Assembly (NCBI GenBank): GCA_964501355.1
Contig: CAZCSM010000008.1
Location: 761 to 64,760 of the forward strand
Source: an uncultured Candidatus Saccharibacteria bacterium
GTDB lineage: Bacteria > Patescibacteriota > Dojkabacteria > CAZCSM01
DNA: 64,000 bases
Direction: 5' to 3'
Shown: positions 21,001 through 24,000 of the stretch, one piece after another
How positions within the stretch are numbered: the first letter of the stretch is position 1
How the letters are laid out: every line of letters begins with the position of its first letter
Made by a program: the position numbers

Positions 21001-24000
21001 GCAGATTGTCATCAAGGGAAATTTCTATGCTTTATCACTTGCCAAATAGAATTAATGACCCACAAATTGATCATTTCATAACACCTGATATCGCCTCTAA
21101 AAAGGTCTATCGAAGTAAACAGAATATTGATGACTTAGAACTTGGAATAAATTTTTCCAGAGAGAAAAGCTATAAGGTTCACCTGCCTTATGAGAATAGG
21201 AAACGACATATCGTTGTTACAGGGCAAACAGGCACAGGTAAATCGACAATTCTAAAGCGATTTATCTTGCAGGATATTGATAACTTGGTAAATCGAGGGA
21301 ATAAACGAGGCTTGATGCTAATGGATCCGCATGAAGATTTTTTCTTTGATATTTTACAAAGACTTCCAAACAACTTTGAACAATCAAAAAGAATCATTGC
21401 ATGGGATACAAGAAGTGAAGATTATTATTTTGGATTCAATCCTTTGTACGCAATAGGACTTTCCGAAAGAGAAATTGATTTAATCGTTGATTCAAACTTC
21501 AAACTGATTGAGAAAATTGTCAAACGAAGTAACCCCGATAGCGGAATGGGAATGACTGGAAAGCCAATGTTAATCAATGCAATGAAGACACTAATGATAT
21601 TCCAAAATGATTGGATTGCCTCATTTGGATCTACACCAGAAGCAATTCAATTCATGAGTTCTCATGCACCAACTTTGATTGATGTGAGGAATCTGTTCTT
21701 TAGCGACAAGATGGAATCAAGTGTACTCAAAGTCATTGATCTAAATAAATACGAAGGACTGAGAGCCTTTTGGCAGGATACACTTCCAAATTATAAAACC
21801 TCACAAAATTGGCAAGAAATCCGACAAGGTTTTGATAATAAGCTTTCTCAGATTCTTACAGGAATTCTTATGTACACTTTTGGGCAGTCTCGAAATGCAA
21901 TCAGCATTTCAAACATTATCAGACAATCGAGGGTACTACTTGTAAACCTTTCCTCAAAGAATATCGGTGAAGAAGGAATGAGCTTACTTGGTTCCCTTTT
22001 GATGTCCAAAGTCTGGTTTGAAGCAAAGAAGGTTAATCAAGAAGATAGACGACCTTTCGTTGTTTATGCTGATGAGTTTCAAAATTTTGCAAGTTCTGAT
22101 TTCTCTCAAGCATTGTCGGAGGCTAGGAAATTCAAGCTTGAGTTGGTACTAGCTCATCAATTCTTTAAACAACTTCCTGACGATGTATTTCACTCTGTCA
22201 TAGGCAATGTAAAGAACAAAGTCTACTACAGATGCGGTTTAGAAGACTCAGAAATCATTTCTAAGGAGCTACAAAGCAAAGTGCTTGAGCAGGAGGTTAT
22301 GGAAGTACCTGAATTCAATGCGAATGTTAAAGCAGGTGAAGATGTTTTTTCAATATATATCCCTCAGGAAAGAGAAACATCTTTTAGCAAGGAGTATGTA
22401 AATAATTTTATTGACAATTCATATCAGAAATATGGAAAACATAAGTCAGAAATCGAGCAGGAAATCAAAAACAGAAGGACTTGGATTGTTGACGGATGCA
22501 AGTTTGAATAGTTGCGTACCTGTTTCAGCTCGGAAATCAGAAGCAACTATGCTCTTTTACTTACATAAATTAATAATAATGTGTTCCGACCGCCTATTTC
22601 AGTCTCGGTGTTGAGTGATTGGGTGGACTCCTTCGGACTCCACCCAATCACTCCCTCGACTACGGTCAACATGTGTATGTTTGACCTACACAGAGTGTGA
22701 AAATACAGCGGTCGGAACAGGAATAAATTTATGAATAAAATTAGAATTACATACAATCAAATAGGGATACTGGATATTATTGAATCATTCAGGTACTTAC
22801 CAATCAAAGTATTAAGGACAATAGCAAAACAAAAGAGATTATATTCTCATAGGCAGTCATTGGAGAAAGCTATTATTGGTTTGGAGAGTAAAGGATTATT
22901 GAAATCTTTTTACTATGGTAATAATTGGAAAGTTGTTTATCTTACTAAAAAAGGTGGTGAATTACTTGCAGATGTTAGAGGTGTTGAGTTAGAAAATATT
23001 TCAATTCCCAATCAAGGGCAGAAAGTTCAGTTTGCGATGTTAGAACATTCAGTCAAAATCGGTGAACTTTATGAGCAATTTGTGATTGGTTTGAAATCCT
23101 TTCCTCACATTCAATTGAATGACTGGATTGGCGATCAACGAATGGTGCTTCAATATGAATTCAGATCAGATAAATCTGGACGAACGATAAAACGAGTTTT
23201 ATCCCCTGATTCATATTTTGAATTTACTGTTGATAACAAAGTATTCAATTACTTTCTTGAATATGATACTGGAAGTATGGATATTGAGCAGTTATCAAGA
23301 AAGTTCTTACGCTACTTTGAATACTTCGTTTATGGCGATTGGCAGAAACGATTCAATCAATATCCTCAAATTCTTTTTCTTTCAGAAAGAAGTAAAGATC
23401 GATTGAATAACTTGCAAATTAAACCCGAGACAGATCTTCAATCAGCTATTGATGCCAGAGGGCTTCTTGAGAAATCAAAGAATTTACTATGGATGAGTGT
23501 CGGCAGGTGCGAAAACATCAAAAGCATCACTTCAACTGAAATTGAATCATTTCTCACAATGCCTATTTTATTTAATCAATTGAATGAGTCATGGGTAAAA
23601 GATTTATTAAAGCAATACTGATACTTGTTCCAATCGTTTTGATTGGGACGGGCTTATTTACTATCTATGGAGTTTTTTCTCCTGAGATTGAATACAAAAT
23701 CAATCCACCGAATGAAGCGAAAATTATTGAAATGGTTGAGTCAGAAGAAGATCTTTCAATCAACAGACTTATTATTCCTTCAATCGGGGTTGATATGAAA
23801 ATTGGTCAGGACAAAGAGTTTCTAGATTATGGTGGTTGGATTCAAAGACTTGATTCAGATAATCTTCCAAACTTGATTGCAATTCATCGTTTTGGATGGT
23901 CAACTCTTAGTCCCGATCAAAAGATGAAGCAAACACTTTACCATGTCGATAAATTAGATAAAGGAGATATTGTTTATATTCTCTGGAACGGAGAAAGGTA

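What the first reader, a model, noticed from the sequence alone, without database searches (positions are those of the whole stretch)
22581..22720. Nested inverted repeats between the coupling-protein gene and a Replic_Relax-like gene: candidate oriT or structured RNA
A 140-nt intergenic segment has an outer 12/13-bp inverted repeat (gtgttccgaccgc ... gcggtcggaacag). It encloses a 15-bp perfect stem (gagtgattgggtgga / tccacccaatcactc) with a short extension and a UUCG-like apical loop. No canonical MOB relaxase (HUH motif) is recognisable in the element. The neighbouring 296-aa gene resembles the replication-relaxation family. This structure is therefore a plausible nick-site or oriT, or alternatively a structured RNA or terminator.
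Basis: seen in the sequence. Interest (0 to 1): 0.6.

Follow-up and report, generated by a model that had tools for sequence, protein, structure and literature searches.

The report
Transfer origin of a Patescibacteria conjugative element
The 140-base nested hairpin lies just upstream of a MOBC-type relaxase gene in an integrative conjugative element of an ultra-small (CPR/Patescibacteria) bacterium. It is most likely the DNA site where conjugative transfer starts, a known kind of feature found here in a little-studied phylum.

Summary
The outer stem is 12 perfect base pairs (22582-22593 / 22708-22719). It encloses a 15+3 bp hairpin and further helices. The fold is far more stable than shuffles (z = -7.8 to -10.9), GC-rich in an AT-rich genome, and single-copy.

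The neighbouring 296-aa gene is a Replic_Relax (PF13814) protein. CONJscan files that family as the MOBC relaxase superfamily, the restriction-endonuclease-like relaxases typified by pAD1 TraX. The window carries a Gram-positive-type ICE with a serine recombinase next to tRNA-Pro, VirB4, a VirB6-like protein, a cell-wall hydrolase, a coupling-protein-like ATPase, the relaxase and a sortase.

The same structure precedes relaxase homologues down to about 30% identity in about 30 distinct Patescibacteria loci. Outer and distal helices covary (26 of 40 pairs compensatory; 0 of 500 shuffles as good). An 11-bp hairpin core, the adjacent CCTCGAC and a TGTRT motif stay invariant. The core also occurs in relaxase-less islands with a RepO-like gene and a serine recombinase, in varied transcriptional contexts.

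pAM373, a MOBC plasmid, has a ~140-bp nested inverted repeat in the same gene position.

Best reading: oriT (confidence about 0.7). No Rfam family or terminator fits, and nicking is untested. It is a new member of a known kind.

The parts
22582..22593 (+). P1 5' arm (TGTTCCGACCGC), the outer closing stem
   Evidence: 12/12 complementary to 22708-22719. All 12 pairs show compensatory changes across 30 loci.
22708..22719 (+). P1 3' arm (GCGGTCGGAACA). It ends 1 nt into the AGGA ribosome-binding site of the relaxase gene.
22597..22601 (+). P2 5' arm (TTTCA), pairing with TGAAA 22698-22702. Its length and sequence vary between families (14 bp in family B).
   Evidence: Folds. In the duplex test, arms pair better with their own partner than with arms from other loci.
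22605..22607 (+). TCG that can pair with CGA 22657-22659, extending the conserved hairpin across an internal loop
   Evidence: TCG on the 5' side and TCGA on the 3' side are present in all three families. Both are invariant, so covariation cannot test this pairing.
22613..22653 (+). P3, the conserved hairpin. It has a 15-bp stem, a C.C mismatch, a 3-bp apical stem and a TTC loop. It is the proposed relaxase or accessory-protein recognition hairpin.
   Evidence: 8 of its pairs are invariant in sequence in all 30 distinct loci, and the 11-bp core is identical in at least 28. The 3 apical pairs covary, with 9, 15 and 5 double changes.
22654..22663 (+). Conserved stretch CCTCGAC-TAC directly 3' of the hairpin. 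It is a candidate nic region (inferred).
   Evidence: CCTCGAC is invariant in every locus found through the protein that retains the hairpin. It is also invariant in the loci found by the DNA pattern, but there by construction.
22664..22686 (+). P4 hairpin (GGTCAA...TTGACC). The conserved TGTGTAT (22672-22678) lies in its loop.
   Evidence: 5 of 6 pairs show compensatory changes. A TGTRT motif lies 8-13 nt after CCTCGAC in 30 of 30 loci.
22688..22698 (+). P5 mini-hairpin ACAC-AGA-GTGT
   Evidence: All 4 pairs covary, for example ATCC-GAT-GGAT in L007, L010 and L013.
22731..23621 (+). Gene for the 296-aa Replic_Relax / MOBC-type relaxase: an N-terminal winged helix followed by a restriction-endonuclease-like domain
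   Evidence: PF13814, E = 4.9e-13, 50 bits against a cutoff of 25.3. The AlphaFold model has pLDDT 91.7; its weak fold matches are to FokI, PfoI and Cap4 nucleases and to MarR/PadR winged helices. Invariant acidic and lysine residues are D135, D160, E177, D179 and K191.
19917..22511 (+). Gene for the 864-aa coupling-protein-like P-loop ATPase, immediately upstream
   Evidence: TrwB_AAD_bind, 22.2 bits against a cutoff of 20.5, plus weak TraD hits limited to the P-loop region. It is syntenic in all family A loci.
19057..19920 (+). Gene for the HTH_36 winged-helix protein, a candidate relaxosome accessory protein. In family B it is the gene directly upstream of the element.
   Evidence: PF13730, E = 1.3e-13. 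Synteny is shown.
3997..5568 (-). Large serine recombinase, the ICE integrase. Its 3' end overlaps tRNA-Pro (3936-4012).
   Evidence: Resolvase + Recombinase + Zn_ribbon_recom domains. tRNAs are listed.

Best explanation
The segment at about 22582-22719 is the origin of transfer (oriT) of an integrative conjugative element in a Patescibacteria genome. Source names for close matches are Dojkabacteria, Nomurabacteria and Saccharibacteria.

Proposed mechanism, all of it inferred:
1. When the strands separate, through supercoiling, relaxosome binding or during transfer, one strand folds into a junction of four to five helices. The G.T versus A.C bias weakly favours the + strand.
2. The invariant hairpin P3 (GAGTGATTGGGTGGA...TCCACCCAATCACTC) and the adjacent invariant CCTCGAC, with TGTRT 8-13 nt further on, are the sequence-specific recognition and nick region. 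The enzyme would be the MOBC-type relaxase encoded 11 nt downstream, which has a winged helix and a PD-(D/E)XK domain.
3. The HTH_36 winged-helix protein may act as an accessory factor.
4. The covarying outer stems P1 and P2 hold the core in a closed domain. As proposed for the large inverted repeat of pAD1 oriT2, they may help termination or re-ligation.
5. The nicked strand is handed to the coupling-protein-like ATPase and the VirB4/VirB6-type channel encoded upstream.

Small relaxase-encoding islands (family B) and relaxase-less islands with a RepO-like gene and a serine recombinase (family C) carry the same core. They would be mobilised through it.

Shown here: the structure, its conservation and covariation, its linkage to MOBC genes, and its likeness in anatomy and position to the pAM373 oriT region.
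Not shown: nicking, the nick position, which strand is transferred, and mobilisation.
For: (1) Context. The window holds an ICE-like gene set: a large serine recombinase next to tRNA-Pro, an XRE regulator, a DUF11 surface protein, a VirB6-like protein, VirB4, an M23 hydrolase, HTH_36, a coupling-protein-like ATPase, then the element, Replic_Relax and a sortase.

(2) Relaxase family. PF13814 is the MOBC relaxase superfamily in CONJscan (PMC5357655). MOBC relaxases are PD-(D/E)XK enzymes with pAD1 TraX as prototype (PMC12857230; PMC3424549). MOBC is the commonest relaxase class reported in Patescibacteria, at 58 of 109, and 39 of the 109 relaxase genes (all MOB classes) lie close to t4cp (PMC12102498).

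(3) Co-inheritance in loci found through the protein, which is an unbiased sample. The element lies directly upstream of the relaxase gene in 11 of the 13 genome loci at 49-97% protein identity, and in L050. Partial copies sit at the contig starts of L051 and L053 (38% identity). The exceptions are informative: L008 has a 53-nt internal deletion, L005 is cut by the contig end, and L052 is a solo relaxase gene fused to DUF4143.

(4) A DNA-pattern scan of metagenomes found the core again. In one group it lies between an HTH_36 gene and relaxases of only 31-33% identity, followed by a serine recombinase.

(5) Base pairing is under selection. On the model-guided alignment of 30 distinct sequences, 91.9% of cells are paired against 72.6% in shuffles (0 of 500 reach the observed value) and 34-47% when partners are slid. 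26 of 40 pairs show compensatory changes, including 12 of 12 in P1. An alignment-free test agrees: arms paired with their own partner give -31.3 kcal/mol against -19.4 for arms from other loci.

(6) Primary sequence is under selection in the core. The 11-bp hairpin stem, CCTCGAC and TGTRT are invariant while everything else drifts. An invariant hairpin followed by a conserved single-stranded tail is the classical relaxase-site anatomy (established knowledge for the MOBF, MOBQ and MOBP systems).

(7) Precedent. In pAM373 (typed MOBC by MOB-suite), the interval between the coupling-protein gene and the replication-relaxation gene holds a ~140-bp nested inverted repeat with an 18-bp outer and a 25-bp inner stem (DNA fold z = -13.3).

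(8) Against a cis-acting RNA. In family C the element lies in divergent, convergent or antisense positions relative to flanking genes and has no relaxase gene to regulate.

(9) Other negatives. No Rfam family matched at E <= 10. No terminator-like site was found.
Against: - There is no experimental evidence of nicking or mobilisation, and the organisms are uncultured.
- The element has no sequence similarity to any characterised oriT. The covariance model does not hit pAM373, and blastn found nothing in PLSDB or in phages.
- It lacks the array of 5-6 short direct repeats that is the TraX binding site in pAD1 and pAM373. TRF finds that array in pAM373 (score 90-106). In the window it finds only a weak 2.4-copy repeat, which is not conserved.
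- The CPR relaxase is too far from plasmid MOBC relaxases for tblastn. A profile-to-sequence comparison with the pAM373 protein is weak (E = 0.008, N-terminal winged helix only). Membership therefore rests on the shared Pfam family.
- Covariation proves intramolecular pairing but cannot tell ssDNA from RNA. The element would also be transcribed within the tra operon in families A and B.
- A RepO-like or HTH_36 winged-helix gene accompanies the element in all three families, so a replication-origin role is not excluded.
- The family B and C loci were found with a DNA pattern that required the core, so core invariance in them is partly by construction.
- The pair counts come from an alignment fitted to the model's structure, so they lean towards it.
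Confidence: 0.7

Rival explanations
1. It is a structured RNA. It could be a cis-regulatory leader of the relaxase mRNA, whose outer stem abuts the ribosome-binding site and could gate translation, or an RNA-processing or stability element within the tra operon transcript, or a small RNA.
For: In families A and B the element lies in a co-directional intergenic gap, so it would be transcribed. The P1 3' arm ends 1 nt into the AGGA ribosome-binding site, 11 nt before the ATG. Helices covary strongly. G.U pairs outnumber A.C pairs 35 to 15 on the mRNA-sense strand. The RNA fold has z = -7.8.
Against: No Rfam family matched at E <= 10. The distance from P1 to the start codon varies from 11 to more than 50 nt among homologues, so occlusion of the ribosome-binding site is not conserved. 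In family C there is no relaxase gene within the fetched loci, and the element lies antisense to, or between divergent or convergent, genes. Strict sequence invariance of an 11-bp helix together with drifting outer helices is more typical of a protein-recognised DNA site than of an RNA helix. The G.T bias applies equally to a folded + strand of ssDNA.
Confidence: 0.1
2. It is a single-strand replication signal or a replication origin rather than, or in addition to, the nick site. One option is an sso-like or Frpo-like fold that recruits RNA polymerase or a primase to the transferred or rolling-circle strand. The other is an origin bound by the HTH_36 or RepO-like winged-helix protein.
For: A large, orientation-specific ssDNA fold of about 140 nt is the hallmark of single-strand origins (established knowledge). 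A RepO-like (PF04492) or HTH_36 (PF13730) gene accompanies the element in all three families. The two proteins show a faint match at the recognition helix (E = 0.04). The family name 'replication-relaxation' reflects reported roles in plasmid replication (PMC3424549).
Against: The ssoA signature CS-6 (TAGCGW) is present in only 1 of 30 loci. There are no iterons or tandem repeats. No promoter-like sites appear above chance. Wherever a relaxase gene exists the element sits immediately upstream of it, whereas its distance to the RepO-like or HTH_36 gene varies: 2.7 kb upstream in family A, adjacent in B, and 0.3-1.2 kb downstream in C. A relaxase-less island would gain nothing from an sso without an oriT.
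Confidence: 0.13
3. It is an intrinsic terminator or attenuator between the ATPase gene and the relaxase gene, or a selfish palindromic repeat (MITE-like) with no role in transfer.
For: It contains GC-rich hairpins in an intergenic gap. Terminal inverted repeats are flanked by AT-rich DNA.
Against: No T-run follows any helix and the scan found 0 terminator-like sites. The element is single-copy in the 64-kb window, and the covariance model finds one forward-strand copy per locus, the minus-strand matches being palindromic echoes of it. It occupies the same syntenic position across relaxases of 30-97% identity, which a mobile repeat would not.
Confidence: 0.04

Closest known systems
oriT2 of Enterococcus faecalis plasmid pAD1 and the oriT of pAM373 (MOBC; relaxase TraX / Orf8)
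   Same: The gene order is the same: coupling-protein gene, then oriT, then a Replic_Relax/MOBC relaxase gene on one strand. Both have a nested inverted repeat of about 140 bp with an outer and a longer inner stem. In pAM373 these are 18 bp and 25 bp (z = -13.3); in the window 12 bp and 15+3 bp (z = -8.7). The relaxase in both is a winged helix followed by a PD-(D/E)XK domain. From memory of Francia & Clewell 2002, which I could not read here: the pAD1 nic lies inside the large inverted repeat.
   Different: There is no sequence similarity. pAM373 has a 5.5-copy, 12-bp direct-repeat array beside the inverted repeat, which is the relaxase binding site; the window has none. The CPR element is a junction of 4-5 helices with extra hairpins P4 and P5 rather than a simple two-tier hairpin. 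It lies 11 nt from the relaxase start codon, whereas pAM373 has about 600 bp and small ORFs in between. It is on an integrated element with a serine recombinase, not on a plasmid.
Streptococcal IME_Class_8 (VirD4 coupling protein + Rel_PF13814/MobC relaxase + serine integrase; Coluzzi et al. 2017, PMC5357655)
   Same: The compact module of coupling protein, MOBC relaxase and serine recombinase is the same. Family B here has HTH_36, the element, the relaxase and a serine recombinase. Family A has the coupling protein, the element and the relaxase, with a serine recombinase at the ICE end.
   Different: The passages of that paper read here (a search for relaxase terms) describe no oriT for that class. 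The hosts are Firmicutes, not Patescibacteria. Family B lacks a coupling-protein gene within the fetched flanks.
oriT families shared between ICEs, relaxase-encoding IMEs ('iMOB') and relaxase-less islands ('iOriT') (bioRxiv 10.64898/2026.01.13.699239)
   Same: One oriT-like core is shared by three element types that otherwise differ in gene content: a T4SS-bearing ICE (A), small relaxase-encoding islands (B) and relaxase-less islands (C). This is the helper/hitcher pattern described there. Most family C hairpins (5 of the 9 distinct loci) are identical to the family A (ICE) type down to the apical loop.
   Different: That work covers six Proteobacterial pathogens and found serine recombinases in fewer than 1% of islands. 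Here every element type uses a large serine recombinase and the hosts are CPR bacteria. The family C loci are partial contigs, so absence of a relaxase is shown only within 3-11 kb.
Single-strand origins (ssoA type) and ssDNA promoters (Frpo) of rolling-circle plasmids and conjugative elements
   Same: Both are orientation-specific, heavily base-paired ssDNA domains of 100-200 nt on elements that pass through a single-stranded stage.
   Different: The CS-6 consensus is absent (1 of 30). No promoter-like hexamers are reconstituted above chance. The element is tightly juxtaposed to the relaxase gene.

Membership tests
MOBC-type oriT (pAD1 oriT2 / pAM373 oriT) | Lies between the coupling-protein gene and the MOBC relaxase gene | tested here: met
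   The ATPase gene ends at 22511, the element spans 22582-22719 and the relaxase ATG is at 22731. The same order holds in all family A loci and in pAM373.
MOBC-type oriT (pAD1 oriT2 / pAM373 oriT) | Large (~140 bp) inverted-repeat structure | tested here: met
   The structure spans 138 nt and is nested, with z = -8.7 as DNA. pAM373 has about 140 nt with z = -13.3.
MOBC-type oriT (pAD1 oriT2 / pAM373 oriT) | Adjacent array of about 5 short direct repeats that bind the relaxase | tested here: not met
   TRF finds the array in pAM373 (14552-14617, 5.5 copies, score 90). In the window it finds only a 2.4-copy repeat with score 38, which is not conserved in homologues.
MOBC-type oriT (pAD1 oriT2 / pAM373 oriT) | Sequence homology to a characterised MOBC oriT | tested here: not met
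   The covariance model R1 gives no hit in pAM373. blastn against PLSDB found nothing.
MOBC-type oriT (pAD1 oriT2 / pAM373 oriT) | Site- and strand-specific nick by the cognate relaxase, and cis-acting mobilisation | not testable with these tools
   This needs protein biochemistry or a mating assay.
MOBC relaxase / Replic_Relax (PF13814), for the neighbouring gene | Match to the family profile above the curated threshold | tested here: met
   50.0 bits against a cutoff of 25.3, E = 4.9e-13, covering positions 4-189 of the 191-position profile. The pAM373 relaxase scores 27.1 bits against the same profile.
MOBC relaxase / Replic_Relax (PF13814), for the neighbouring gene | N-terminal winged helix plus PD-(D/E)XK nuclease fold with conserved acidic and lysine residues | tested here: inconclusive
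   The model is confident (pLDDT 91.7). The Foldseek matches are to restriction endonucleases (FokI, PfoI), the Cap4 nuclease and MarR/PadR winged helices, but all are weak (E >= 2e-3, TM <= 0.25 over the whole query). D135, D160 (in a PD motif), E177, D179 and K191 are invariant. I did not map these residues onto the TraX catalytic residues because that paper is not held.
Intrinsic terminator | GC-rich hairpin followed by a T-run | tested here: not met
   0 sites in 22300-22900 on either strand.
Any Rfam RNA family | Covariance-model match | tested here: not met
   No hit overlaps 22512-22730 at E <= 10. In the whole window only 3 tRNAs reach the gathering score.
ssoA-type single-strand origin | Conserved CS-6 (TAGCGW) in a terminal loop | tested here: not met
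   TAGCGW is present in 1 of 30 elements on either strand. The RS_B site was not tested.
MITE / dispersed palindromic repeat | Multiple dispersed copies | tested here: not met
   The element is single-copy in the 64-kb window, and there is one forward-strand copy per locus.

The most novel reading that the evidence does not exclude
The hairpin + CCTCGAC core is the common cis-acting transfer origin of a helper/hitcher network inside Patescibacteria. Self-transmissible ICEs, small relaxase-encoding islands and relaxase-less islands with a RepO-like gene and a serine recombinase (some catalogued as viral contigs) would all move through one MOBC relaxase specificity. That would mean conjugation is active among CPR bacteria, although their T4SSs are currently thought to be mostly repurposed. 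It would also give a first nick-region model for the poorly understood PD-(D/E)XK relaxases, namely hairpin recognition with cleavage in the adjacent conserved single strand. Finally, it would provide a native oriT for building genetic tools for these organisms.
Probability: 0.35. Interest if true: 0.65.

Novelty: new member of a known kind. Interest (0 to 1): 0.45.

Why it matters
MOBC relaxases are the least understood canonical relaxase class. They are related to restriction endonucleases, no covalent DNA intermediate has been seen, and their binding site lies far from nic (PMC12857230). Essentially one system, pAD1 with pAM373, has been characterised.

A second oriT family that is unrelated in sequence but similar in anatomy gives concrete, testable candidates for the recognition and cleavage site. 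It comes with about 30 natural variants showing which bases are fixed and which only need to pair.

For Patescibacteria, a 2025 survey found relaxases in only about 100 genomes, mostly MOBC, and the text search of that paper found no mention of an oriT (PMC12102498). A conserved oriT shared by ICEs and small islands argues that at least this lineage of elements is a working conjugation system. It also suggests parts (oriT, relaxase, serine integrase) for genetic tools in a phylum that is very hard to manipulate.

Otherwise the finding is what one expects next to a relaxase gene.

Tried and rejected
- Rfam, E-value mode on 21500-24000 and gathering mode on the whole window: nothing on the element.
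- blastn of the intergenic region against PLSDB plasmids and INPHARED phages: no match.
- tblastn of the relaxase against plasmids: no match. The link to plasmid MOBC systems therefore had to go through Pfam and the pAM373 record fetched by accession.
- Profile-to-sequence comparison with the pAM373 relaxase: only a weak N-terminal match.
- PDB sequence search with the relaxase profile: nothing.
- Francia et al. 2013 (PMC3746933) is not held, so the TraX catalytic residues and the pAD1 nic sequence could not be compared.
- The plain MAFFT alignments (A2, A3) were out of structural register for P1 and P2. I used a covariance-model alignment for the pair counts, so P2 was not counted formally. 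RNAalifold on A3 suggested an alternative AGTC/GACT extension of P3 that is not conserved in families B and C.
- Choosing the strand by folding energy was uninformative. The - strand is about 2-4 kcal/mol more stable in nearly all loci, owing to the shared invariant part. The G.T: A.C ratio of 35:15 favours the + strand only weakly.
- Search for direct repeats like the TraX binding array: none conserved.
- Search for the ICE right end (attR) by direct repeats: none found.
- Four metagenome hits (L015, L030, L041, L046) and one viral hit (L054) were high-GC chance matches without the structure and were discarded.
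Full report
**Observation.** The outer arms TGTTCCGACCGC (22582-22593) and GCGGTCGGAACA (22708-22719) are 12/12 complementary. The inner hairpin 22613-22631 / 22635-22653 has 15 perfect pairs, a C.C mismatch and 3 apical pairs around a TTC loop. The fold is far more stable than dinucleotide shuffles: z = -7.8 for + strand RNA, -10.9 for - strand RNA and -8.7 for + strand DNA, with 0 of 200 shuffles as good. The segment is a 52% GC island in DNA of about 30-38% GC and is single-copy in the window. No terminator-like site was found, and promoter-like sites do not exceed chance. 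No Rfam family matches at E <= 10.

**Context.** The + strand from about 7 to 24 kb encodes a Gram-positive-type conjugation set:
- a DUF11 surface protein;
- a VirB6/TrbL-like membrane protein;
- VirB4, split into the 252-aa and 614-aa ORFs;
- an M23 cell-wall hydrolase;
- an HTH_36 winged-helix protein;
- an 864-aa P-loop ATPase that passes the TrwB_AAD_bind threshold;
- the element, then a 296-aa Replic_Relax protein (PF13814, E = 4.9e-13) and a sortase-like protein.

On the - strand at the left are an XRE regulator and a large serine recombinase. The recombinase gene's 3' end overlaps tRNA-Pro. This is an integrative conjugative element. Source names for near-identical relaxases and loci are Candidatus Nomurabacteria, Dojkabacteria and Saccharibacteria MAGs, all Patescibacteria/CPR.

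**The neighbouring gene is a canonical relaxase.** PF13814 is what CONJscan calls the MOBC superfamily (PMC5357655). The family has a PD-(D/E)XK restriction-endonuclease-like fold (PMC3424549), and pAD1 TraX is the studied prototype (PMC12857230). An AlphaFold model (pLDDT 91.7) shows an N-terminal winged helix followed by an alpha/beta domain. The only fold matches are weak: FokI, PfoI and Cap4 nuclease domains, and MarR/PadR winged helices. D135, D160 (in a PD motif), E177, D179 and K191 are invariant among 32 homologues. A 2025 survey reports MOBC as the commonest relaxase class in Patescibacteria (58 of 109), reports 39 of the 109 relaxase genes (all classes) close to t4cp, and never uses the word oriT in its main text (PMC12102498).

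**Comparative evidence.** Relaxase homologues (34 proteins) led to 13 genome loci and four further loci.
- In every locus with enough upstream DNA and an intact module, the same nested structure sits directly before the relaxase gene. This holds down to 49% protein identity. Partial copies lie at the contig starts of L051 and of L053 (38% identity).
- L008 has a 53-nt deletion that removes P3 and CCTCGACTAC between GAT microhomologies.
- L052 is a solo relaxase gene fused to DUF4143, outside any transfer module, and has no element.

A metagenome scan with the core pattern CCACCCAMTCACTYCCTCGAC returned 35 loci, of which 31 are real. They fall into three contexts.
- Family A: coupling protein, element, relaxase, sortase. 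These are ICEs like the window.
- Family B: HTH_36, element, relaxase (31-33% identity), large serine recombinase. These are small mobilisable islands.
- Family C: the element near an XRE gene, a 140-190-aa Phage_rep_O-like protein and a large serine recombinase. A profile HMM found no relaxase in the 3-11 kb fetched. One family C element is catalogued as a viral contig (L055).

**What is conserved and what covaries.** A covariance model built from ten family A sequences finds one forward-strand copy per locus; the weaker minus-strand matches are echoes of the palindromic hairpin. It aligned 30 distinct sequences. On that alignment:
- 91.9% of cells are standard pairs, against 72.6% in column shuffles (0 of 500 reach it) and 34-47% when partners are slid by 1-3 columns.
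- 26 of 40 pairs carry compensatory double changes: 12 of 12 in P1, 5 of 6 in P4, 4 of 4 in P5, and the three apical pairs of P3.

The alignment is fitted to the model, so I also ran an alignment-free test. The 5' flank of each element pairs better with its own 3' flank (mean -31.3 kcal/mol) than with those of other loci (-19.4). The cognate arm ranks first or second in most of families A and B. The closing stem is weak or absent in three family C loci.

By contrast, the 11-bp core of P3 (TGATTGGGTGG / CCACCCAATCA), the following CCTCGAC and a TGTRT motif 8-13 nt further on are fixed in sequence. In the loci found through the protein this invariance is unbiased. In the loci found by the pattern it is partly by construction.

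So the pattern is a protein-recognition hairpin with a conserved single-stranded tail, enclosed by helices that only need to pair.

**Which strand, and DNA or RNA.** Folding energies do not discriminate between the strands. Non-Watson-Crick cells are G.T 35 times and A.C 15 times on the + strand. This is a weak vote for the + strand, either as mRNA-sense RNA or as the folded DNA strand.

Against a cis-regulatory RNA:
- the spacing from P1 to the start codon varies from 11 to more than 50 nt;
- in family C the element has no relaxase gene to control and lies between divergent, convergent or antisense genes;
- no Rfam family fits.

**Comparison with the known MOBC system.** I fetched pAM373 (NC_002630; typed MOBC by MOB-suite). 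On one strand it has the TraG-like coupling-protein gene, then a 5.5-copy 12-bp direct-repeat array, then a ~140-bp nested inverted repeat (18-bp outer stem, 25-bp inner stem; DNA fold z = -13.3). Small ORFs and the replication-relaxation gene follow. The review PMC12857230 states that TraX binds five direct repeats 70-120 bp from nic and that no covalent intermediate was seen. From memory of Francia & Clewell 2002, which I could not read here, the pAD1 nic lies within the large inverted repeat, and the repeat contributes to transfer or re-ligation.

The window element shares the position and the nested-repeat anatomy. It has no sequence similarity and no direct-repeat array. It works like a MOBC oriT and is the expected partner of a MOBC relaxase, but it is not a sequence homologue of the pAD1/pAM373 oriT.

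**Mechanism proposed.** Everything beyond the anatomy is inferred. Strand opening lets one strand fold. The relaxase, possibly helped by the HTH_36 protein, recognises the invariant P3 hairpin and cuts in or near the conserved CCTCGAC...TGTRT stretch. P1 and P2 close the domain and may serve termination. The strand is then passed to the coupling ATPase and the VirB4/VirB6 channel. HTH_36 is encoded directly upstream in family B and in the tra operon in family A. Families B and C would be mobilised in trans through the same core. Most family C hairpins (5 of 9 distinct loci) are identical to the ICE type down to the apical loop, as in the ICE / iMOB / iOriT helper-hitcher scheme (bioRxiv 10.64898/2026.01.13.699239).

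**Rivals.**
- Structured RNA: about 0.10.
- An sso-like ssDNA priming signal, or an origin bound by the RepO/HTH_36 protein, possibly in addition to oriT: about 0.13. The CS-6 motif is absent and there are no iterons.
- Terminator or dispersed repeat: about 0.04.

**Verdict.** The oriT reading is the best supported (about 0.7) but remains untested. It is a new member of a known kind: an oriT upstream of its MOBC relaxase. Its interest lies in the host phylum and in the clean separation of invariant and covarying parts, which makes the MOBC nick region and CPR conjugation experimentally approachable.

Noticed in passing
window 3603-5568: tRNA-Cys, tRNA-Leu and tRNA-Pro lie in a row. The large serine recombinase gene (3997-5568, - strand) overlaps the 3' end of tRNA-Pro (3936-4012) by 16 nt. 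This is probably the left junction of the ICE. No matching direct repeat marks the right end.
   Followed up: partly
window 22506-22552: A second hairpin straddles the stop codon of the 864-aa ATPase gene (GAATAGTTGC ... GCAACTATGC). In L001 both arms changed and pairing improved (GCGTAGTTGC / GCAACTACGC). It is not evident in more distant loci. It could be part of the oriT region or a transcript 3' structure.
   Followed up: partly
L008 3834-3929 (JBGSIU010000045.1): This is a natural 53-nt deletion of the conserved hairpin plus CCTCGACTAC, between GAT microhomologies. P1, P2, P4, P5 and the flanking coupling-protein and relaxase genes remain. It may be an inactivated origin and would serve as a ready-made negative control.
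   Followed up: partly
L014, L021, L023, L025, L029, L032, L036, L037, L043, L055: These relaxase-less islands carry the element near an XRE gene, a Phage_rep_O-like 140-190-aa protein and a large serine recombinase. L055 is listed in IMG/VR as a viral contig. L014 also carries DNA methyltransferase-like ORFs upstream.
   Followed up: partly
L052 4001-5050 (CAXDTR010000012.1): Here Replic_Relax is fused to DUF4143 and sits as a solo gene next to a RecQ helicase gene. There is no T4SS and no element upstream. It may be a domesticated or decayed relaxase.
   Followed up: no
window 29752-29791 and 30655-30694: A 40-nt direct repeat (88% identical) contains its own hairpin (TTTGAGGGT...ACCCTCA). 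The copies are 903 nt apart and flank the 126-aa ORF at 29813-30193.
   Followed up: no
window 22721-22747: A weak 2.4-copy repeat of 11-12 nt (GAATAAAWTTA) runs across the ribosome-binding site and start codon of the relaxase gene. It is not conserved in homologous loci.
   Followed up: yes
window 14605-17204: VirB4 appears split. The 252-aa ORF (14605-15363) matches the N-terminal part of VirB4-like ICE ATPases, and the adjoining 614-aa ORF (15360-17204) carries the P-loop TraG/AAA_10 domain.
   Followed up: no
window 25144-28825: On the - strand just right of the transfer genes lie a beta-lactamase-family protein, an MFS transporter and an ABC-F-type double ATPase. It was not determined whether they are ICE cargo or flanking chromosome.
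   Followed up: no
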